A DNA stretch of 64,000 bases, taken from positions 18,984 through 82,983 of IMG/VR virus record IMGVR_UViG_3300031994_000064; one strand, written 5' to 3'. The notes below the pieces were generated by a model that made no database searches, was not told the DNA's origin, and was given only the letters and a program-made list of their open reading frames with translations. This stretch comes from a virus (taxonomy: Duplodnaviria > Caudoviricetes). Each line of letters begins with the position of its first letter. The stretch's first letter is position 1. Positions 1 through 60,501 of the stretch are shown here, piece after piece. A program made the translations under genes and the position numbers.

Positions 1-93
1 ACCTTACGTGGTATGGGTAGAGGACGTGGAATGGTCGGCATTGGCTGACACGTTGAAGCGTCAATCTATTTAACAAAAAAAATAAAACAACGT
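1..93 (+). mobile_element. Right end of an IS200/IS605-type TnpB element (copy 1, truncated by window edge)
   Basis: Aligns by eye with the 3' ends of the TnpB elements at 6228-7498 and 58322-59582 (CTACGTGGTA..GTAGAGGAC..GTCGGC-loop-GCTGAC..ACGTCAATCTATTT), then A-rich tract ending CAACGT at 93. Confidence 0.85.
2..73 (+). CDS. tnpB: C-terminal end of a TnpB (partial)
   Basis: Frame reads PYVVWVEDVEWSALADTLKRQSI*, nearly identical to the C-terminus of the TnpB at 58367-59560. Confidence 0.75.
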   Translation, partial: PYVVWVEDVEWSALADTLKRQSI

Positions 94-645: not shown

Positions 646-1560
646 ATGGTACAACAACAAAACCAAATCCAACAGCAGCAGCCGAAACTCGGCATCGCCG
701 CACTCAAAAACGTCCTCAACAACGACGCTATCAAACAGAAATTTGCAGATATGCTCGGCAAAGAATCGCAAGGGTTTATAACGAGCGTTATTGCTGTTTG
801 CTCAAACAACCAGCTTCTTGCAAAAGCAGACGCTAACAGTATTGTTCTTGCGGCTTCTCTTGCGGCAGGAATGAAGCTACCGATAAACCCAAATCTGGGT
901 TATGCGGCTATTGTTCCGTTTAGAGACGGCAAAACAGGAATCACTACAGGAACCATGCAAATAATGCGCAATGGTTGGGTAGAGCTTGCTTTGCGTACTG
1001 GAAAAGTTGCGAAAATAACCAACGAACTCGTTTACGAGGGAGAACTTGTCAGCAAAAACCGCTTTACCGATGAGTATGTGTTTGACGAAACAAAGCGCGT
1101 GTCAGACAAGGTTATAGGCGCGATGGCATACGTTAAATTGACGAAAGAAATGGGAGGTCTTGAAAAGACCGTTTACTGGACTACCGAACAGTGCTTAAAA
1201 CACGGCAAGAGATATTCGCAAACATTCAGAAAAGGCTACGGACTTTGGGTTTCCGACCCGGAAAGTATGTTTTTGAAAAGCGTGCTAAAGCATTTGATTG
1301 TCAAATATGTTCCAAAATCTATCGAGCTACAAAAAGCTATTGATTCAGACCAAGCCGCGTTCACTGGCGACATCGACAACCCGAAACCTGTTTACGTTGA
1401 CAATCCGCACGAGGAGGAGGTCGGCGAACCAGTCGATTTCGAGGAGGTCGATACCGAAAGCGGCGAGGTTCAGCAAGAGGAAGAACCCAAAACAACCATC
1501 GTTGTCGAGGATGACGAGCCGACCAACGGCGAACTTTTCAACGAAAAAGAACAACAATAG
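646..1560 (+). CDS. recT: RecT-family single-strand annealing protein
   Basis: LPINPNLGYAAIVPF and downstream RecT-like motifs, acidic C-terminus. Confidence 0.9.
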   Translation: MVQQQNQIQQQQPKLGIAALKNVLNNDAIKQKFADMLGKESQGFITSVIAVCSNNQLLAKADANSIVLAASLAAGMKLPINPNLGYAAIVPFRDGKTGITTGTMQIMRNGWVELALRTGKVAKITNELVYEGELVSKNRFTDEYVFDETKRVSDKVIGAMAYVKLTKEMGGLEKTVYWTTEQCLKHGKRYSQTFRKGYGLWVSDPESMFLKSVLKHLIVKYVPKSIELQKAIDSDQAAFTGDIDNPKPVYVDNPHEEEVGEPVDFEEVDTESGEVQQEEEPKTTIVVEDDEPTNGELFNEKEQQ

Positions 1561-2939: not shown

Positions 2940-4178
2940 ATGGTGTATGTTTTAGACAAAGACGGCAGACCTTTGATGCCGACAAAGCGACACAGAAAAG
3001 TCAGACGGCTTCTTCGTGACGGTCTTGCTGTTGTCGTGAGACGAACACCGTTCACCATCAGACTTCTGTTTGACACGACCCATTACAAGCAGAATGTCAC
3101 TCTTGGAATTGATGCAGGGTCTAAACACGTAGGTGTCAGCGCATCAACGAAAAACGAAGAACTCTTCAGTTCAGAGGTATTGCTACGCAATGATATTGTG
3201 AATTTATTAAGTACGAGACGCGAGGCACGCAGAACAAGAAGAAGCAGAAAATTACGTCACAGAGCTGCAAGATTCAACAACAGACGAAAAGAAGATGGAT
3301 GGCTTGCTCCGTCTGTAATGCAGAAGGTTGACAGCCATATCAAGATTGCGAACCTTGTATGCTCAATTCTGCCTATTGATACAATTGTGATAGAGACAGC
3401 GCAGTTTGATACGCAGAAAATCAAAAATCCAGATATTAGCGGAGAAGAGTATCATCACGGAGAACAAGAAGGCTTTTGGAACGTGCGCGAATATGTTTTG
3501 TGGCGAGACGGTCACGTTTGCCAACACTGCAAAGGCAAAAGCGGCGACAAGATTTTGAACGTGCATCATCTTGAAAGCCGAAAGACGGGCGGCGACAGTC
3601 CAAACAATCTCATAACGCTTTGCGAAACGTGTCACAAATCATATCACAAAGGCGAGATTGAACTAAAATTCAAACACCGTTCAAATTCTTTGCGCGACGC
3701 GGCGTTTATGAATGTTATGCGGTGGCGCGTGTATGAATTGATGAAAAAGATGTTTGCGGACAAGACCGTGAAGATTACTTATGGCTATCAGACAAAGCGC
3801 AAGCGCATTGAAAACGTAATAGAAAAGACGCATTGCGCGGACGCTTTTTGCATTGCTGGTAATTTAACTGCAAGACGCACAGACAGACTTTATAAAGGTC
3901 GTTTTGTCGCACGTCACGCGAGAAGCCTTCACGTGTTTGTGCCAAAGAAAGGCGGAGTACGCAGAAGCACTATTGCAAACCATTGGATAGGGAAAAACAG
4001 ATTGCAACGGTTTGATACGGTTCGATACAACGGTGCTGATTGTTTTATTTCTGGAAGCTCAAACGGAATACCGTTTTTGCGTGATGCTGATTGGAAAAAA
4101 GTTACAAAAACATCAATAGTAAATGCAAAATATGTCAAATTTATGTCTCGTAAGCATAGTTCTTTGTTGATTTTGTAA
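2940..4178 (+). CDS. iscB: IscB RNA-guided endonuclease
   Basis: PLMP motif, RuvC-I GIDAG, Arg-rich bridge helix RRTRRSR, RuvC-II IETA, HNH with Cys pairs, RuvC-III HCADA. Confidence 0.95.
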   Translation: MVYVLDKDGRPLMPTKRHRKVRRLLRDGLAVVVRRTPFTIRLLFDTTHYKQNVTLGIDAGSKHVGVSASTKNEELFSSEVLLRNDIVNLLSTRREARRTRRSRKLRHRAARFNNRRKEDGWLAPSVMQKVDSHIKIANLVCSILPIDTIVIETAQFDTQKIKNPDISGEEYHHGEQEGFWNVREYVLWRDGHVCQHCKGKSGDKILNVHHLESRKTGGDSPNNLITLCETCHKSYHKGEIELKFKHRSNSLRDAAFMNVMRWRVYELMKKMFADKTVKITYGYQTKRKRIENVIEKTHCADAFCIAGNLTARRTDRLYKGRFVARHARSLHVFVPKKGGVRRSTIANHWIGKNRLQRFDTVRYNGADCFISGSSNGIPFLRDADWKKVTKTSIVNAKYVKFMSRKHSSLLIL

Positions 4179-5938: not shown

Positions 5939-6229
5939 TTATCTTTGTGTTTCAATCTTTATTCCGAGTTTAAGCGCGATGAAATGCTCAAGTTTCGCAC
6001 CATGAGAGGCTTTCCACCCTTTGAGCATATAGATGCCGTCGCAATTGACGAGCAAAGGAATCACTGTCTGCATACATTTCTTCCAAGACCATGACACATT
6101 GCAGTGCTTTGTAGGGTTCACGGGTTCGTCTCCGCGAGAATACAAGAACTCTTCTGCTTTTGCGAAATTGTCCATCGCCTGCTCATAGGGCAAACCGCTG
6201 ACTTGACCTGCAATATAAATTTTACTCAC
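5939..6229 (-). CDS. DUF4406-like protein (GTG start)
   Basis: KIYIAGQVSG..CDGIYMLKGWKASHGAKLE pattern. Confidence 0.8.
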   Translation of the reverse strand: MSKIYIAGQVSGLPYEQAMDNFAKAEEFLYSRGDEPVNPTKHCNVSWSWKKCMQTVIPLLVNCDGIYMLKGWKASHGAKLEHFIALKLGIKIETQR

Positions 6230-6244
6230 GTGATTTCTCCTTTC

Positions 6245-7453
6245 TTATTTTGTTAATAATGAAATAGATTGACGTTTCATCGTGTCAGCCAATTCCGACC
6301 ACTCCGCGTCCTCTACCCCTACCACGTAGGGTGATTTATTGTTGTTTGTTAAATTCTGTTCTTGCAAACCGAATCTTAGAATGTTCACGGCGGCGAGCAA
6401 GTCCCTGTCATTGTCGCGACCGCATGACGGGCACACCCATCTTCGCTGTGACAGCTTCAAGTCTTTGTAAACGCTACCGCACAAGCACATCTTTGAACTC
6501 GGCTCGAAACGCCCGATGCGCACAAGGTTTTTGCCGTACCAATCGCATTTATATTGCAACTGTCTGAAAAATTCAGACCACGCAACAGAGCTTATGCTTT
6601 TGGCGAGGCAATGGTTTTTAAGCATTCCGTCCACATTCAAGTCCTCAACGACTATGGTTTGGTTCTCACGCACAATCTTCGATGTTACTTGGTGAATAAA
6701 ATTGGTACGCTTGTTTCTTATGCGCTCATGCTGTTTTGCGACTGCAAGTTTTGCGCGTTCTCTGCGTTTGCTGCCTTTCTGCTTTTTCGCAAGCCGTCTT
6801 TGCAGCACTTTGAGACGCTTTTCCTCTTTTTCAAGAAATTTAGGATTCTCGAACACTTGACCGTTTGAAAGCACGGCAAAATCCTTGATGCCAACGTCTA
6901 TACCAACCGATGTATTAAAATCAATCATCGGCTTTTCGGGCATCGGCTTGCCGTCATCAACGGTTATAGATATATAGTATTTGTTAGTCGGCGATTTAGA
7001 AACGGTGCAAGTACCAATTTTTCCTACAAAAGTTCTGTCGCAGGCAAACTTCACCTTGCCGACTTTTGGCATCTTAACACGCTTATTATCAAAATCAACG
7101 AATACGCAGTCAACAAACTGAAACGAGTTTCTGTTTCTTTTCTTTGACTTGAATTTCGGGAAACCTTTCTTTTCTCTGAAAAAGCGGGTAAACGCGGCAT
7201 CCATATTGCGTATTGACGATTGCAGAGATTGATTTGAAACCTCGGACAGCCATTCTGTCTCTTCTTGTTTTTTAAGGCTTGTGAGTTCTTTTGCGATAGA
7301 CACATAGCTGAGCCTTTCGCCGCTGTTTTGGTATGTTTCAATCCTTCTCTGCAACGCCCAATTATAGACATATCGGCAGCAGCCAAACGATTTCTCAAAA
7401 AAAGTCGCTTGTTCCGCTGTTGGGTATAGCCTATATTTGTACGATTTAATCAT
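6245..7453 (-). CDS. tnpB: TnpB RNA-guided endonuclease
   Basis: YKYRLYPT HTH, RuvC GIDVG / VVEDL / DRDLLAA, Zn-finger CLCG..CPSCG; ATG at 7453 preferred over TTG 7483. Confidence 0.95.
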   Translation of the reverse strand: MIKSYKYRLYPTAEQATFFEKSFGCCRYVYNWALQRRIETYQNSGERLSYVSIAKELTSLKKQEETEWLSEVSNQSLQSSIRNMDAAFTRFFREKKGFPKFKSKKRNRNSFQFVDCVFVDFDNKRVKMPKVGKVKFACDRTFVGKIGTCTVSKSPTNKYYISITVDDGKPMPEKPMIDFNTSVGIDVGIKDFAVLSNGQVFENPKFLEKEEKRLKVLQRRLAKKQKGSKRRERAKLAVAKQHERIRNKRTNFIHQVTSKIVRENQTIVVEDLNVDGMLKNHCLAKSISSVAWSEFFRQLQYKCDWYGKNLVRIGRFEPSSKMCLCGSVYKDLKLSQRRWVCPSCGRDNDRDLLAAVNILRFGLQEQNLTNNNKSPYVVGVEDAEWSELADTMKRQSISLLTK

Positions 7454-7457
7454 GCCG

Positions 7458-7465
7458 CAAATATA
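7458..7465 (-). promoter_or_regulatory. -7 promoter box of tnpB
   Basis: TATATTTG, 4 nt before ATG. Confidence 0.7.
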
Positions 7466-7591
7466 CAAAAAAATTAAATACAAACGGGCTTAATTTTTAT
7501 AAAAGCTTTTTTTTAAAAATATCAAAATAGTTGTATCAACATATTGATTTTTCATTTATAAAAAATCATGAGCCTTTGCCATACTATTTTT

Positions 7592-20290: not shown

Positions 20291-20974
20291 CTACTCGCCT
20301 TGTTCGGCTTTCAAGGCTTCTCCTGCGGCTTTGATGGTTTCCTTGATTTTTTCAAGGTGGCTTGCCGAGCCTGCGCCGCGAGGTGTCAAGTCGTCGTCTT
20401 CGGGCATTTCCGAGAAGAACTCGTTGTACATCTCAAGGTAGCTTTCGGCTTCCGCTTCGATGTCGGTGTTCTCGTCAATCTTCGCCTTGTCGAGCATTGA
20501 TTTCACCCATTTGTCGTTCTTGACACCTTTCTTCTTGATTTCGGCGGCAAGCTGTTCGCGTTTCTGACCAATGGTCTTTTTCGTTTCTTCGGCTTGCTTT
20601 TCGTCCTCAAGCTTTTTCAAGCGTTCTTCCAACTTGGCGATGGTCTCGTCTTTCTTGCCGTCATCGTTGCCGACCTCGTCTTTTTTTTTCTTTTTCGCAG
20701 GCTCTTCGATTTGCTTTTTCAGCTCCTCGATTTGCTTGTTAAAATTCTCGGCGAGGGTCGAATTGGCTTTGTTAATGTGACCTTTCTGCGTTTCAAGCAT
20801 TTTAACGGCTTTTTCCGCAAAAGCGTCAAGTTCGATTTCGCTGTCTTCACCAACAAGTTCGCATAGGGTCTCTACGTGTTCCTTGATGGTTCGTTCCCAA
20901 TCGGCGATTTTTTCTACCTTTTTTGAGAACATTGCCGTGATTTTTTCACGGGCTTCCTCTTTTGTGAATTTCAC
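20291..20974 (-). CDS. Capsid scaffolding protein (GTG start)
   Basis: Highly charged coiled-coil protein heading the head operon. Confidence 0.7.
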   Translation of the reverse strand: MKFTKEEAREKITAMFSKKVEKIADWERTIKEHVETLCELVGEDSEIELDAFAEKAVKMLETQKGHINKANSTLAENFNKQIEELKKQIEEPAKKKKKDEVGNDDGKKDETIAKLEERLKKLEDEKQAEETKKTIGQKREQLAAEIKKKGVKNDKWVKSMLDKAKIDENTDIEAEAESYLEMYNEFFSEMPEDDDLTPRGAGSASHLEKIKETIKAAGEALKAEQGE

Positions 20975-21090
20975 GTTGTTCTATTTTTTTTAAGTTAAAT
21001 AGATTGACGCTTCATCGTATCAACCAATGTTGACTACTCCACGTCCTCTACCCCTACCACGTAGGGTGATTTAAGTTAGTTTATGTTTTT
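20973..21090 (-). mobile_element. Orphan TnpB right-end/omegaRNA module without tnpB (copy 3)
   Basis: About 75 nt (20998-21072) homologous to the tnpB 3' ends, then A-rich tract ending CAACGT; left boundary uncertain (21082 or 21090). Confidence 0.8.
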
Positions 21091-21129
21091 ATCTTTTTTC
21101 AATTTCCTGTTCGTTTTGGATTAACGCGG

Positions 21130-36792: not shown

Positions 36793-36844
36793 AGTCTTTG
36801 GTTTTTTTGTTAATAATTAGGTTTGTTTGTTTTGAAATTTTTTG

Positions 36845-36852
36845 TATCTTTG
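36845..36852 (+). promoter_or_regulatory. -7 box of HNH gene, followed by structured leader (GGGTCGA 36864-70 / TCGACCC 36920-26)
   Basis: TATCTTTG. Confidence 0.65.
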
Positions 36853-36963
36853 CACCCATAATTGGGTCGATAGTTCAGACTTGCAAACTGAATGACAAGG
36901 AGATAAGTCAACGGCTCTTTCGACCCTCTATTTTATCGTTGGCATCATCAAAATCGTTGACAA

Positions 36964-41098: not shown

Positions 41099-41647
41099 TT
41101 AACTTAAAACTTTCGTGATTATCGGCAAGGCTGCGTATTCAACAGCCTGCAACTGGTTAGGTATCTGCGAATCGTACACGTAAGGGCAATGACCAATCAG
41201 GTTGTTGAACTTTAGCTCAATCTCGATGTATTTCATGCCCTTGTAGTTGTCTTCTTTGACCTCGACCGCGCTTATGAGCGTCATCACAGCCATCTTGCGG
41301 CGAACGTTGTCCCAAAAGACGACTGGCAGTGTGCCGGAGACAAGCCCTATCACGGTGTTCATATCGTCATTGCCATTGGCTATTGACGGGTCTCTTCTTA
41401 CCACAAGGTCTAAGGTTATGGTTGTCGCCTCTCTCGTGATTACTTCGGGGAAGTCGGCTCTCACCGTATCACTGTCGGCGTATGTCTCTGTGTATATGTT
41501 CTTCACTTTTCCGAAATCCTCAAGACCAGTGCATTTTCGGTAAAGCAGCGTTCTGCCAGTCCCGAGAACGTAGTTGTTGATGTCAGTCCAAGTCCAAGAA
41601 CTGTTTGCGTATTTTCCTATATATACGTGTACGTCTTGTATTTCCAC
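41099..41647 (-). CDS. Distal-tail-like protein (GTG start)
   Basis: KVKNIYTETYADSD..REATTITLDL pattern recalls distal tail proteins; recognition only. Confidence 0.4.
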   Translation of the reverse strand: MEIQDVHVYIGKYANSSWTWTDINNYVLGTGRTLLYRKCTGLEDFGKVKNIYTETYADSDTVRADFPEVITREATTITLDLVVRRDPSIANGNDDMNTVIGLVSGTLPVVFWDNVRRKMAVMTLISAVEVKEDNYKGMKYIEIELKFNNLIGHCPYVYDSQIPNQLQAVEYAALPIITKVLS

Positions 41648-41670
41648 GTGATTTCTATTTTAATTGTTAA

Positions 41671-52238: not shown

Positions 52239-52388
52239 AAGCCAATCAAATTCTTGCGAAAAAACGAAGAGAATCGGGCTGGTTTGCCATAACAGAATTT
52301 GCCATAAATTTTTCAACCGTCTGATTCTCTTTTTGTTATGAAAGAAAATTTATTTTTATAAAAATGTTCAGCGTATTGGTATTTTTTG

Positions 52389-52396
52389 TATCTTTG
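52389..52396 (+). promoter_or_regulatory. -7 promoter box
   Basis: TATCTTTG. Confidence 0.65.
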
Positions 52397-55799: not shown

Positions 55800-55846
55800 G
55801 CGAAAAAATATTTTTATAAAAGTGTTGAACGTATAGAAATATTTTG

Positions 55847-55854
55847 TATCTTTG
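55847..55854 (+). promoter_or_regulatory. -7 box of replication operon, followed by leader hairpin 55880-55929
   Basis: TATCTTTG; TCGGTCGGG/CCCGACCGA stem. Confidence 0.65.
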
Positions 55855-58275: not shown

Positions 58276-58354
58276 AAAATGAGTGAAAGAATCAGAGAGG
58301 AAAAGAAATGACAATTTTCATAAAAATTAAAACCAATCGTATTTAATAATTTTG

Positions 58355-58362
58355 TATCTTTG
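58355..58362 (+). promoter_or_regulatory. -7 promoter box of tnpB
   Basis: TATCTTTG, 4 nt before ATG. Confidence 0.7.
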
Positions 58363-58366
58363 CGGC

Positions 58367-59560
58367 ATGATTAAAGCGTACAAATATAGGCTATACCCGA
58401 CAGCGGAGCAAACGACTTTCTTTGAGAAATCGTTTGGCTGCTGCCGATATGTCTATAATTGGGCGTTGCAGAGAAGAATTGAAACATACCAAAACAGCGG
58501 CGAAAGACTAAGTTATGTGTCTATCGCAAAAGAACTCACAAGCCTCAAAAAACAAGAGGAGACAGAATGGCTGTCCGAGGTTTCAACACAATCTCTGCAA
58601 TCGTCAATACGCAATATGGATGCCGCGTTTACCCGCTTTTTCAGAGAAAAGAAAGGTTTCCCGAAATTCAAGTCAAAGAAAAGAAACAAAAGCTCGTTTC
58701 AGTTTGTTCAACAAGTGTATGTTGATTTTGAAAGCAAACGCATTCAAATGCCAAAAGTAGGCAAAGTGAAGTTTGCCTGCGATAGAACATTTGTTGGCAA
58801 AATCGGCACGTGTACCGTGTCTAAATCACCGACTAACAAATACTATATATCCATAACCGTTGATGACGGCGAACCAATGCCAGAGAAGCCGATGATTGAA
58901 TTTAACACGTCGGTTGGTATTGATGTCGGCATCAAGGATTTTGCCGTTATTTCAAACGGCCAAGTGTTCGATAATCCTAAATTTCTTGAAAAATCGGAAA
59001 AGCGTCTAAAAGTGCTGCAAAGACGGCTTGCGAAAAAGAAGAAAGGCAGCAAACGCAGAGAACGCGCAAAACTTGCAGTCGCAAAACAGCATGAGCGCAT
59101 AAGAAACAAGCGTACCAATTTTATTCACCAAGTAACATCGAAGATTGTGCGTGAGAACCAAACCATAGTCGTAGAGGACTTGAATGTGGACGGTATGCTT
59201 AAAAACCATTGCCTTGCCAAAAGCATAAGTTCTGTTGCGTGGTATGAATTTTTCAGACAGTTGCAGTATAAATGCGATTGGTACGGAAAAAACCTTGTGC
59301 GCATTGGGCGTTTCGAGCCGAGTTCAAAGATGTGTTTATGTGGCAATGTTTACAAGGATTTGAAACTGTCACAACGAAGATGGGTGTGCCCGTCTTGCGG
59401 TCGCGACAATGACAGGGACTTACTTGCCGCAGTGAACATTCTACGATTCGGCTTGCAGGAACAGAATTTAATAAACAACAATAAATCACCCTACGTGGTA
59501 GGGGTAGAGGACGCGGAGTGGTCGGCACTGGCCGACACGTTGAAACGTCAATCTATTTAA
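58367..59560 (+). CDS. tnpB: TnpB RNA-guided endonuclease
   Basis: Same motifs as copy 2, RuvC D/E/D intact; near-identical protein. Confidence 0.95.
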   Translation: MIKAYKYRLYPTAEQTTFFEKSFGCCRYVYNWALQRRIETYQNSGERLSYVSIAKELTSLKKQEETEWLSEVSTQSLQSSIRNMDAAFTRFFREKKGFPKFKSKKRNKSSFQFVQQVYVDFESKRIQMPKVGKVKFACDRTFVGKIGTCTVSKSPTNKYYISITVDDGEPMPEKPMIEFNTSVGIDVGIKDFAVISNGQVFDNPKFLEKSEKRLKVLQRRLAKKKKGSKRRERAKLAVAKQHERIRNKRTNFIHQVTSKIVRENQTIVVEDLNVDGMLKNHCLAKSISSVAWYEFFRQLQYKCDWYGKNLVRIGRFEPSSKMCLCGNVYKDLKLSQRRWVCPSCGRDNDRDLLAAVNILRFGLQEQNLINNNKSPYVVGVEDAEWSALADTLKRQSI

Positions 59561-59580
59561 TCTTAAAAAATAGAAATCAC

Positions 59581-60501
59581 GTGACGAAAAGTACACAAAA
59601 ATACGGTTTGCCATATATGGGCAGCAAATCGACCATCGCGGAATGGGTCATAAGCCATCTTCCGAAAGCGGACACGCTTGTCGATGCTTTTGCGGGCGGT
59701 TGCGCACTAACGCACGCGGCAATGCTGTCACGTAAGTTCAAACGCATAATAGCAAACGACATCACAGACGCGCCGAAACTGTTCATTGACGCTTGCAACG
59801 GCTTATACAAAGACGAGAAACGGTGGGTTTCACGCGAATATTTTGAAGCAAACAAAGACAACGACCCGTTTGTCCGTCTGATTTGGTCTTTCGGCAACAA
59901 CCAGAGATACTACATCTACGCGAAAGACATCGAAGAGCGCAAACACGCCATCCACAACGCCGTACACGACCGAAAAACGGCTCAACTGTCGGCAATAGGG
60001 CTGATAGACCAAGAAGACGCAGAACCTATTGAAAAACGGCTTGAAAGCATTGACGACACGATGCAAAGATACCAGCTTGTCAAGCGCACCATCATCAAAC
60101 ACTCGAAAAACATAGACGCACGGTGCGAGACACTTGAGCGCACCGCGAGGCTGCAACACTTGGAGCGCACCGAGAGGCTGCAACACTTGGAAATCACACA
60201 AAAAGACTATAGAGATGTCGAGATACCGAAAGGAAATACAATCATATTGGCGGATATTCCTTACCGCAAAACAGCCAAATACCTCAACGACTTTGACCAC
60301 GAGGCATTCTACGAATGGGCGTTGGCGCAGAAACACCCAGTGTTCGTCTGCGAGTACGACATGCCGACACCGCCGTTCACGCTTATAGACCAAACATTAA
60401 AAAACAGCCAACTTTCGGCGACCACAACAAAAAAAGCGACCGAAAAGCTGTTTGCTTGCAATTTAACCGACAAAACAGAAGGTCAGATGAAACTTTTTTA
60501 G
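59581..60501 (+). CDS. DNA adenine methyltransferase, Dam/D12-like (GTG start)
   Basis: PYMGSKS, VDAFAGG SAM-binding motif, LADIPY catalytic variant. Confidence 0.85.
   Translation: MTKSTQKYGLPYMGSKSTIAEWVISHLPKADTLVDAFAGGCALTHAAMLSRKFKRIIANDITDAPKLFIDACNGLYKDEKRWVSREYFEANKDNDPFVRLIWSFGNNQRYYIYAKDIEERKHAIHNAVHDRKTAQLSAIGLIDQEDAEPIEKRLESIDDTMQRYQLVKRTIIKHSKNIDARCETLERTARLQHLERTERLQHLEITQKDYRDVEIPKGNTIILADIPYRKTAKYLNDFDHEAFYEWALAQKHPVFVCEYDMPTPPFTLIDQTLKNSQLSATTTKKATEKLFACNLTDKTEGQMKLF
60136..60189 (+). repeat. 27-nt tandem duplication (ERTARLQHL / ERTERLQHL)
   Basis: Two units with one mismatch. Confidence 0.9.

What the first reader, a model, noticed from the sequence alone, without database searches (positions are those of the whole stretch)
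58308..59600. TnpB elements appear to insert inside start codons and rebuild them as GTG
Seen: all four TnpB right-end modules continue past the usual-looking TCAATCTATTT through an A-rich tract and end in ACGT (copy 1 AAAACAACGT, copy 2 GAAATCACGT, copy 3 AGAACAACGT, copy 4 AGAAATCACGT). In copies 2, 3 and 4 the next base is G and GT+G is the in-frame start of the downstream gene (DUF4406-like, scaffold, methyltransferase). Both full elements have the left end AAAAATTAA preceded by AT. Joining the flanks gives TTTC-AT|G-ACG-AAA-AGT here (also in frame with ATG 58308) and TTTT-AT|G-AGT-AAA-ATT for copy 2. Established: IS200/IS605 elements insert 3' of a short motif without duplication, and the TnpB guide is the flank beyond the right end. 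Inference: the motif ends in AT, so insertion often splits AT|G, and the element supplies an A-rich initiation region plus GT to keep the gene translated. The guide would be the first codons of that gene. ATG (empty) alleles would keep the TAM and be cut; GTG (filled) alleles would not. I do not know of this being described.
Basis: partly seen in the sequence, partly recalled or inferred. Interest (0 to 1): 0.92.

Follow-up and report, generated by a model that had tools for sequence, protein, structure and literature searches.

The report
TnpB elements that rebuild start codons
A small selfish DNA element carrying an RNA-guided nuclease (TnpB) repeatedly sits exactly on the start codon of phage genes and replaces the lost ATG with its own ribosome-landing tract and a GTG, so the gene it hits stays usable; this shows how such elements survive in tightly packed phage genomes.

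Summary
Every right end runs about 30 nt past the canonical TCAA, through a hairpin, to ACGT.

In four of the five window copies the next base is G, and GTG is the in-frame start of the next gene. With close relatives from other assemblies there are 13 independent junctions; 9 are such GTG starts.

For six of these genes I found element-free alleles in related phages. All six have ATG and lack the A-rich tail, so the element supplies at least the first G. One variant of the tail carries AAGGAG seven bases before the GTG.

The left end of copy 2 lies about 70 nt further out, and copy 4 lost its left part and a neighbouring gene by deletion. The split may be A|TG rather than AT|G.

The guide and TAM claims remain untested. 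More distant relatives carry inverted-repeat ends and 8-bp target duplications, which does not fit classic IS200/IS605 behaviour.

This scan noted similar start-codon behaviour of TnpB elements in other phages. I found no paper describing it.

The parts
58316..59582 (+). Copy 4: tnpB element with a 5'-truncated left end; its right end abuts the methyltransferase gene
   Evidence: Homology with the element-free relative L081 stops at 58315 and resumes at 59582. Four relatives lack the element here.
58355..58362 (+). Bacteroidota-type -7 promoter box (TAnnTTTG) just upstream of tnpB, carried by the element
   Evidence: Read. Conserved in all subfamily copies. Assignment as a promoter rests on general knowledge of Bacteroidota promoters.
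58367..59560 (+). tnpB of copy 4 (397 aa), RuvC and zinc-finger motifs present
   Evidence: NCBIfam IS200_TnpB 434 bits against a cut-off of 425. Pfam HTH_OrfB_IS605, OrfB_IS605, Cas12f1-like_TNB.
59470..59551 (+). Canonical omegaRNA-like scaffold with two G+C hairpins, ending in TCAA
   Evidence: Repeat family D9. Fold z = -2.2. Distant relatives end their conserved right end at the homologous TCAA or TTCA(A/C).
59552..59582 (+). Right-end extension ('tail'): 7-bp A/T hairpin with a variable A-rich loop, then AATCACGT
   Evidence: Conserved across the clade. 6 of 7 pairs show compensatory changes in 34 members. Absent from all empty alleles.
59581..60501 (+). D12 adenine methyltransferase gene starting at the rebuilt GTG (59581-59583)
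   Evidence: Empty alleles read ATG. The 12 codons before the first internal Met differ from L081 only by synonymous changes.
58308..58315 (+). Remnant (first 8 nt) of orfX, an 87-89 codon gene present in relatives and deleted here
6228..7567 (-). Copy 2: full-length element (left end of about 115 nt, tnpB 7453-6245, scaffold, tail with an SD-like AAGGAG)
   Evidence: A simple insertion relative to the empty allele L106. The left end is shared with L001 and L214.
5942..6229 (-). DUF4406 gene starting at the rebuilt GTG (6229-6227)
   Evidence: Empty alleles L106 and L107 read ATG.
20973..21101 (-). Copy 3: tnpB-less right end (scaffold plus tail) in the leader of the scaffold-like gene
   Evidence: Empty allele L133. 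The same filled allele occurs in L090, L098 and L101. The second hairpin is kept by two compensatory pairs.
20291..20974 (-). Scaffold-like gene starting at the rebuilt GTG (20974-20972)
   Evidence: L133 reads ATG.
1..93 (+). Copy 1: tnpB-less right end (begins 15 nt before the window) ending 8 nt before the ATG of a DUF3127 gene (102-602)
41646..41667 (-). Copy 5: 22-nt tail-only remnant that supplies the GTG (41647-41645) of ORF 41647-41099
   Evidence: 25 of 25 identical to the L001 tail. Empty allele in L221/L222 reads ATG.

Best explanation
These are transposase-less tnpB elements of the IS200/IS605 protein family whose right end has been lengthened.

Structure of the right end: after the canonical omegaRNA end (TCAA) comes a conserved hairpin, then the bases AATCACG(T).

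What is shown:
- The elements enter DNA directly after a short motif ending in (A)T, usually TAT.
- When that motif is the beginning of a start codon, the last bases of the element plus the remaining (T)G of the codon make GTG.
- The A-rich, in one variant Shine-Dalgarno-bearing, tail sits where a translation initiation region should be.

What is inferred:
- In a phage genome that is almost all coding, most insertions are lethal. The downstream gene at a rebuilt start codon presumably stays translated, so those insertions survive and accumulate.
- Once a gene depends on the tail for its start codon, deletions can remove the left end, tnpB and even the scaffold, but not the tail. This would explain the tnpB-less right ends and the 22-nt remnant.
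- The omegaRNA runs to the element's end, so its guide is the first codons of the gene. TnpB would then cut ATG (empty) alleles of co-infecting phages but not GTG (filled) ones, and repair would copy the element in.
For: Empty alleles:
- Six filled/empty pairs have ATG and no tail in the empty allele: copy 4 vs L081, L083, L084, L085; copy 2 vs L106, L107; copy 3 vs L133; copy 5 vs L221/L222; the L214 site vs L084; the L218 site vs L217.
- One more empty methyltransferase allele joins at window 59582 in run X7.

Junction counts:
- 13 independent right-end junctions all end in ACGT, and 9 are in-frame GTG starts.
- The other 4 lie 8-49 nt upstream of ATG genes.
- The 4 junctions not followed by G show that the element ends at ACG(T), not at GTG.

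Simple insertion: copy 2 is a simple insertion without target duplication.

Insertion motif: it ends in AT in all 7 recovered empty sites, including the non-start insertion L217 vs L218.

The tail belongs to the element:
- It is conserved in relatives down to 52% protein identity.
- Its hairpin has compensatory changes in 6 of 7 pairs.

The GTG is used:
- Codons between GTG and the first internal Met differ from empty alleles only synonymously (copy 4: 12 codons; copies 2 and 3: 13 each).
- Copy 5's gene has no Met in its first 60 codons.
- Gene callers of other assemblies chose the GTG at the L214 and L218 sites.

Tail variant: AAGGAG lies 7 nt before the GTG in the copy 2 tail. It is also present in L221, where the element is not at a start codon, so it belongs to the element.

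Nuclease: TnpB looks catalytically intact, and NCBIfam IS200_TnpB scores above its cut-off.
Against: - No expression data: the RNA libraries that hold the phage are kept only as contigs, so neither translation from GTG nor the omegaRNA 3' end is shown.
- The canonical scaffold end (TCAA) lies about 30 nt inside the element. The guide could therefore be the tail itself, and the ATG/GTG discrimination would then not exist.
- No TnpA is in the complete genome, and most left ends are truncated. How new sites are reached is unknown.
- Relatives at 60-72% identity have inverted-repeat ends and 8-bp target duplications at several sites, which classic IS200/IS605 transposition does not produce.
- The left side of copy 4 needs an extra deletion to be explained.
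- The split position (A|TG or AT|G) cannot be resolved from sequence.
Confidence: 0.8

Rival explanations
1. The element really ends at TCAA. The A-rich tract and GTG are the native leader and start of the phage genes, and the elements simply insert in front of them.
For: More distant relatives end their conserved right end at the homologous TCAA. The tail's loop is more variable than the scaffold.
Against: Six element-free alleles have ATG and no tract. The tract is conserved with compensatory changes across elements at dozens of unrelated sites. The tnpB stop codon lies beyond TCAA.
Confidence: 0.02
2. There is no site-specific insertion. The tnpB-plus-tail cassette is moved about by rare illegitimate or short-homology recombination in phage genomes, and selection keeps only the events that land on a start codon.
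For: No transposase in the genome. Left ends are ragged and often abut the upstream stop codon. Copy 4 and copy 5 show deletions at short homologies. RecT is encoded in the window.
Against: The right junction is identical to the base in 13 independent sites. The non-start insertion in L217 also follows TAT. Copy 2 is a clean insertion with a full left end shared with L001 and L214.
Confidence: 0.1
3. The elements are moved by an enzyme that recognises inverted-repeat ends and makes staggered cuts, not by an IS200/IS605 TnpA. The TnpB cassette rides inside a small inverted-repeat element, and the TG of the start codon is part of that enzyme's target.
For: In relatives the first 13-23 nt of the left end are the reverse complement of the right terminus. 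Element-free alleles confirm 8-bp duplications at two sites, and several further sites show perfect 8-bp flanking repeats. Hairpin-only mini-elements with the same ends occur without tnpB. The window's own ends share TGATTT / AAATCA.
Against: Copy 2 (this subfamily) and L052 (relatives) are insertions without any duplication. No such transposase was identified. G-U pairs in the hairpin indicate a single-strand structure on the top strand, as in IS200/IS605.
Confidence: 0.15
4. The start-codon rebuild is real, but TnpB does not home into ATG alleles. Its guide is the constant tail after TCAA (or the RNA is not functional), so the nuclease has another target or none.
For: The scaffold/guide boundary of canonical relatives is at TCAA. 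An unpaired 7-8 nt plus a hairpin between scaffold and guide would be unusual for TnpB RNAs (general knowledge of ISDra2 structures).
Against: The tail differs between copies in the would-be guide positions 8-20, and no matching target was seen in the genome. The stem-conserved, loop-variable pattern fits a structural element. Filled and empty alleles are not distributed as flank similarity predicts: L133, 96% identical in the scaffold-like protein, is empty, while L090-type phages, whose printed first ~40 nt of that gene differ from the window at more positions, are filled.
Confidence: 0.35

Closest known systems
TnpB-only (IS1341-type) members of the IS200/IS605 family, with ISDra2 TnpB-omegaRNA as the studied model
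   Same: The protein passes the NCBIfam IS200_TnpB model and has the three Pfam domains. The RNA scaffold overlaps the 3' end of tnpB. Copy 2 inserted after a short motif without target duplication. There is no transposase gene of its own.
   Different: The right end extends about 30 nt past the canonical TCAA with an extra hairpin. The terminal bases rebuild a start codon, and the tail acts as a leader for the next gene. Relatives have inverted-repeat ends and 8-bp duplications. It lives in a virulent-looking phage genome.
IStrons (IS200/IS605 or IS607 element fused to a group I intron)
   Same: They solve the same problem, making an insertion in a gene harmless to the carrier.
   Different: IStrons remove themselves from the mRNA by splicing. 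Here nothing is removed: the element replaces the translation start. Rfam found no intron in the window.
Free-standing homing endonuclease genes of phages (intronless homing, e.g. Seg and Mob genes of T4-like phages)
   Same: They sit between genes of dense phage genomes, are present or absent among close relatives, and are thought to spread by cutting the empty allele during co-infection.
   Different: Recognition would be by guide RNA plus TAM rather than by protein. The element sits on the start codon itself and supplies a new one.
TnpB elements on start codons noted earlier in this scan (IS607-type element in a 394-kb wastewater phage; RNA-only mini-elements in another phage)
   Same: The right end offers a replacement ribosome site and start codon to the gene that was hit.
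   Different: Those were single cases of another TnpB lineage. Here one lineage shows it at nine sites, six of them with empty alleles, and always as GTG.

Membership tests
IS200/IS605-family TnpB (RNA-guided nuclease) | Protein matches the curated TnpB model above its cut-off and has the HTH, RuvC and zinc-ribbon domains | tested here: met
   NF038281 434 bits against a cut-off of 425. Pfam PF12323, PF01385 and PF07282 all above cut-off.
IS200/IS605-family TnpB (RNA-guided nuclease) | Catalytic RuvC Asp-Glu-Asp residues and zinc-finger cysteines present | tested here: met
   The motifs GIDVG, VVEDL, DRD and the two Cys pairs were read in the translation.
IS200/IS605-family TnpB (RNA-guided nuclease) | Structured omegaRNA scaffold overlapping the 3' end of tnpB | tested here: met
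   Two G+C hairpins are conserved in all copies. Copy 3 keeps hairpin 2 by two compensatory pairs. Fold z = -2.2. No Rfam model exists for it.
IS200/IS605-family TnpB (RNA-guided nuclease) | Guide is the flank just beyond the right end, and a TAM lies before the target | not testable with these tools
   Needs RNA 3'-end mapping and a TAM or cleavage assay. The RNA runs are available only as contigs.
IS200/IS605 insertion sequence (transposition mode) | Insertion 3' of a short specific motif, with no target duplication | tested here: met
   This holds for the window's own subfamily: copy 2 vs L106 is a clean insertion, and 7 empty sites end in (T/G)AT.
IS200/IS605 insertion sequence (transposition mode) | No terminal inverted repeats and no duplications anywhere in the lineage | tested here: not met
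   Relatives at 60-72% identity have ends that are reverse complements of each other. They have 8-bp duplications, confirmed against element-free alleles at two sites; a third site has none.
IS200/IS605 insertion sequence (transposition mode) | A Y1 (HUH) TnpA, in the element or available in trans | tested here: not met
   No PF01797 match in the complete 82,983-nt genome. A host copy could not be examined because the host is unknown.
IS607-family TnpB element | Protein matches the IS607_TnpB model above its cut-off | tested here: not met
   NF038280 200 bits against a cut-off of 350.
IStron | A group I intron fused to the element | tested here: not met
   The Rfam gathering scan of the window finds only two tRNAs.

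The most novel reading that the evidence does not exclude
Start-codon capture works as a combined stealth and addiction device for an RNA-guided homing element.
- The element lands on the A|TG or AT|G of a gene and makes that gene depend on its tail.
- It uses the gene's first codons as guide and the intact ATG context as TAM. Only uninvaded alleles are cut, and they are converted during co-infection.
- The tnpB-less right ends would then be non-autonomous homing elements, served in trans by the TnpB of the full copies.
Probability: 0.3. Interest if true: 0.88.

Novelty: new variant of a known kind. Interest (0 to 1): 0.74.

Why it matters
TnpB genes are very common in phage genomes, yet it is unclear how a 1.3-kb insertion is tolerated where almost every base is coding. 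This lineage gives a concrete answer, supported by natural filled and empty alleles: the element carries a portable translation start and is retained where it replaces a start codon.

It also explains orphan omegaRNA-like modules and short A-rich GTG leaders as footprints of such elements. It warns annotators that GTG starts behind these tails are real; gene callers truncated the methyltransferase by 12 codons.

Six filled/empty allele pairs are ready-made for testing RNA-guided homing between phages. The ATG-versus-GTG difference would be the simplest possible self/non-self mark.

The inverted-repeat ends and 8-bp duplications in relatives suggest that some TnpB elements move by a route other than the textbook one.

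Tried and rejected
- GenBank phage collection, distant mode, with the 4-kb region: only a 90-nt tnpB hit in a Klebsiella phage, no relatives.
- Rfam: no family for the scaffold, no intron.
- Metagenome contig scan with TnpB: 80 loci, none of the window's subfamily.
- Exact-pattern scan for the right end in IMG/VR: only copy 3 orthologues and L001 were real; the other 15 were chance hits.
- RNA evidence: two sheep-gut metatranscriptome runs hold about half of the sampled words, but only as contigs. No RNA ends, strand or level could be read, and the higher depth over the scaffold comes from several copies mapping there.
- One empty-allele look-up (P0008) returned no DNA.
- Search of the related IMG/VR record G001 for further right ends: only the one already known. 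The ENA records are not searchable by handle.
- Search for an 8-bp duplication at copy 2: none. The similar bases at the left junction are shared with L001 and L214, so they belong to the element.
- Stop codons in all three frames at the start of the left end were considered as a designed feature. I rejected this as not distinguishable from A/T richness.
- Literature: four full-text searches and two papers read found no description of TnpB elements rebuilding start codons.
- Structure prediction, complex prediction and the protein atlas were not used; they would not bear on the question.
Full report
WHAT IS THERE

The window is the last 64 kb of a complete 82,983-nt virus record with direct terminal repeats. 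It encodes a tape-measure protein, RecT and an IscB, and its promoters have the TAnnTTTG box typical of Bacteroidota. Sheep and bovine gut libraries hold it.

The genome has two full tnpB elements:
- copy 2, minus strand, 7567-6228;
- copy 4, 58316-59582.

It has two right ends without tnpB:
- copy 1, window 1-93;
- copy 3, minus strand, 21101-20973.

It is a 22-nt tail-only remnant at 41667-41646 on the minus strand.

The TnpB proteins (397 and 402 aa) pass the NCBIfam IS200_TnpB model and fail the IS607 model. They have the RuvC and zinc-finger motifs. No Y1 transposase is encoded anywhere in the genome.

THE OBSERVATION

Every right end continues past the conserved TCAATCTATTT, through an A-rich stretch, to ACGT.
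- In copies 2, 3, 4 and 5 the next base is G, and GTG is in frame with the downstream gene. These genes are DUF4406, a scaffold-like protein, a D12 adenine methyltransferase and a 182-codon ORF.
- In copy 1 the next base is A, and the gene's ATG lies 8 nt further on.

WHERE THE ELEMENT ENDS

Three lines of evidence place the end at ACG(T) and not at TCAA.

First, the tnpB stop codon lies after TCAA.

Second, in 80 homologous loci from IMG/VR and 80 from metagenomes, relatives down to 52% protein identity keep a 25-35 nt module after the homologous TCAA.
- The module is a hairpin followed by ATCACC or a variant, and the flanks diverge only after it.
- An alignment of 34 different tails gives a 7-pair hairpin in which 6 pairs show changes on both sides.
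- Only more distant relatives (51-55% identity) end at TCAA or TTCA(A/C), the canonical IS200/IS605 right end.

Third, and decisive, are the element-free alleles in related phages.

EMPTY ALLELES

- Methyltransferase (copy 4). Four relatives (L081 from IMG/VR; L083, L084, L085 from ENA) have no tnpB. Their ATG overlaps the stop codon of a small upstream gene, orfX. There is no A-rich tract, and homology with the window resumes at 59582, the T of GTG. A further such allele is seen in run X7.
- DUF4406 gene (copy 2). L106 (92% protein identity) and L107 read ATG. The window differs from L106 by a clean insertion of the element.
- Scaffold-like gene (copy 3). L133 (96% protein identity) reads ATG behind the same promoter. 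L090, L098 and L101 carry the same filled allele as the window.
- ORF behind the tail remnant (copy 5). L221 and L222 read ATG five bases after the upstream stop codon.
- L214 site. This insertion from the same subfamily (TnpB 91-96% identical) was found through ENA and Logan assemblies. It also ends ACGT followed by G, and gene callers took that GTG as the start. Its empty allele in L084 reads ATG.
- L218 site. The same applies here, with the empty allele in L217 reading ATG.

HOW GENERAL IT IS

I count 13 independent right-end junctions of this subfamily.
- Five are in the window.
- Five come from assemblies: L001, L214, L217, L218 and L221.
- Three come from contigs of runs X7 and X8. One of these sits on the start codon of orfX.

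All 13 end in ACGT, and nine are followed by G and are in-frame starts. The other four are followed by A or T and lie 8 to 49 nt upstream of an ATG gene. These four show that the element's constant end is ACG(T) and does not include the final G.

The motif before the insertion point ends in AT in all seven empty sites recovered: six TAT and one GAT. One of the TAT sites (L217 against L218) is not at a start codon.

IS THE GTG USED?

There are no expression data, but the sequence argues that it is.
- Between the GTG and the first internal Met, filled and empty alleles differ only by synonymous changes. Copy 4 has 12 codons with five differences. Copies 2 and 3 have 13 codons each.
- The gene behind copy 5 has no Met in its first 60 codons.
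- The Pfam domains of the DUF4406 and methyltransferase proteins begin before the first internal Met.
- The tail variant of copy 2 has AAGGAG seven bases before the GTG. The same variant occurs in L221, where the element is not on a start codon, so this is a property of the element and not a local adaptation.

The left boundary is not at AT followed by AAAAATTAA.
- Copy 2, L001 and L214 share about 115 nt upstream of the tnpB ATG.
- Compared with L106, the left junction of copy 2 is at window 7568/7567.

Other copies are cut back to different points of this left end, several directly after the stop codon of the upstream gene.

Copy 4 keeps only about 50 nt of the left end, and its flank keeps only the first 8 nt of orfX. 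The simplest history is insertion at the methyltransferase start followed by a deletion of orfX and about 75 nt of the left end (inference).

WHAT REMAINS OPEN

1. The split. Because the element ends in T and the codon has a T, the data allow A|TG or AT|G. In relatives the boundary is unambiguous (L052 against the empty L030) and falls right after ATCACC. By alignment this puts the window's end after CACG and the split at A|TG.

2. The mobilising enzyme.
 - The relatives at 60-72% identity have left termini that are the reverse complement of their right termini.
 - Several show perfect 8-bp flanking repeats, and comparison with empty alleles confirms the duplication at two sites. A third site has none.
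 - Hairpin-only mini-elements with the same ends occur without tnpB.
 - This does not fit textbook IS200/IS605 behaviour (PMC13565253), and I cannot explain it.

3. The guide. If the omegaRNA scaffold ends at TCAA as in canonical relatives, the guide would be the tail. The conserved-stem, variable-loop pattern favours a structural role for the tail, as does the lack of any matching target, but this is inference.

COMPARISON WITH WHAT IS KNOWN

The protein is an ordinary IS200/IS605-type TnpB, and the element is of the tnpB-only kind.

What is not described, as far as four full-text searches and two papers show, is a right end that replaces a start codon and carries a leader for the gene it hits. 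The nearest idea is the IStron, which makes insertions harmless by splicing. The nearest ecology is that of free-standing homing endonuclease genes in phages.

Earlier notes of this scan describe single, similar cases in other phages with other TnpB lineages. The phenomenon may therefore be widespread. Those notes are not independent evidence.

VERDICT

The start-codon rebuild is well supported by comparative data (confidence about 0.8 for the explanation as a whole, higher for the rebuild itself). The left-end anatomy is corrected. The guide and TAM part is open. I class it as a new variant of a known kind, of clear interest to people working on TnpB and on phage genome evolution.

Noticed in passing
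window 41646-41667 (-): A 22-nt tail-only remnant of a TnpB right end, identical to the tail of L001. It sits directly after the upstream stop codon and gives the next ORF its GTG. The relative L221 has ATG there.
   Followed up: yes
L002-L080, L134-L189 (relatives at 60-72% TnpB identity): These tnpB elements have left termini that are the reverse complement of their right termini. Many have perfect 8-bp direct repeats at the flanks. Empty alleles confirm a duplication at two sites, but a third site has none. This is not expected for IS200/IS605.
   Followed up: partly
L034:2150-2224, L035:2850-2893, L161 (-) near 1032, L037:1330-1383: Short hairpin-only elements (about 40-60 nt) with the same terminal sequences as the relatives' TnpB elements occur without any tnpB, like miniature inverted-repeat elements.
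   Followed up: no
window 2940-4178 (+) and 646-1560 (+): The same phage carries an intact-looking IscB (RRXRR plus HNH domains) and a RecT recombinase. So it has two kinds of RNA-guided nuclease and a recombinase, but no transposase.
   Followed up: partly
window 21040-21025 (-) versus 59521-59536 (+): The tnpB-less copy 3 keeps the second scaffold hairpin through two compensatory base-pair changes. This suggests the orphan RNA module is still under selection.
   Followed up: partly
window 52344-52396, 55802-55854, 36829-36853: Promoter regions of ordinary phage genes resemble the promoter-bearing inner part of the element's left end (same -7 box and spacing). Either the element copies the phage's promoter type, or these are old left-end remnants.
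   Followed up: no
window 59581-59616: Gene callers in public collections start the methyltransferase at the internal Met (294 aa) when the start is GTG, but at the true start (306 aa) in empty alleles. GTG starts behind these tails are systematically mis-annotated.
   Followed up: partly
runs X7 and X8 laid on window 59480-59585: Contigs from other animal-gut samples show three further right-end junctions followed by G. One is on the start codon of orfX, the small gene that is deleted in this window.
   Followed up: partly
window 6233-6250 (-) and L221:2700-2722: One tail variant contains a textbook Shine-Dalgarno sequence at ideal spacing, although Bacteroidota-type hosts are thought to rely little on such sites.
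   Followed up: no
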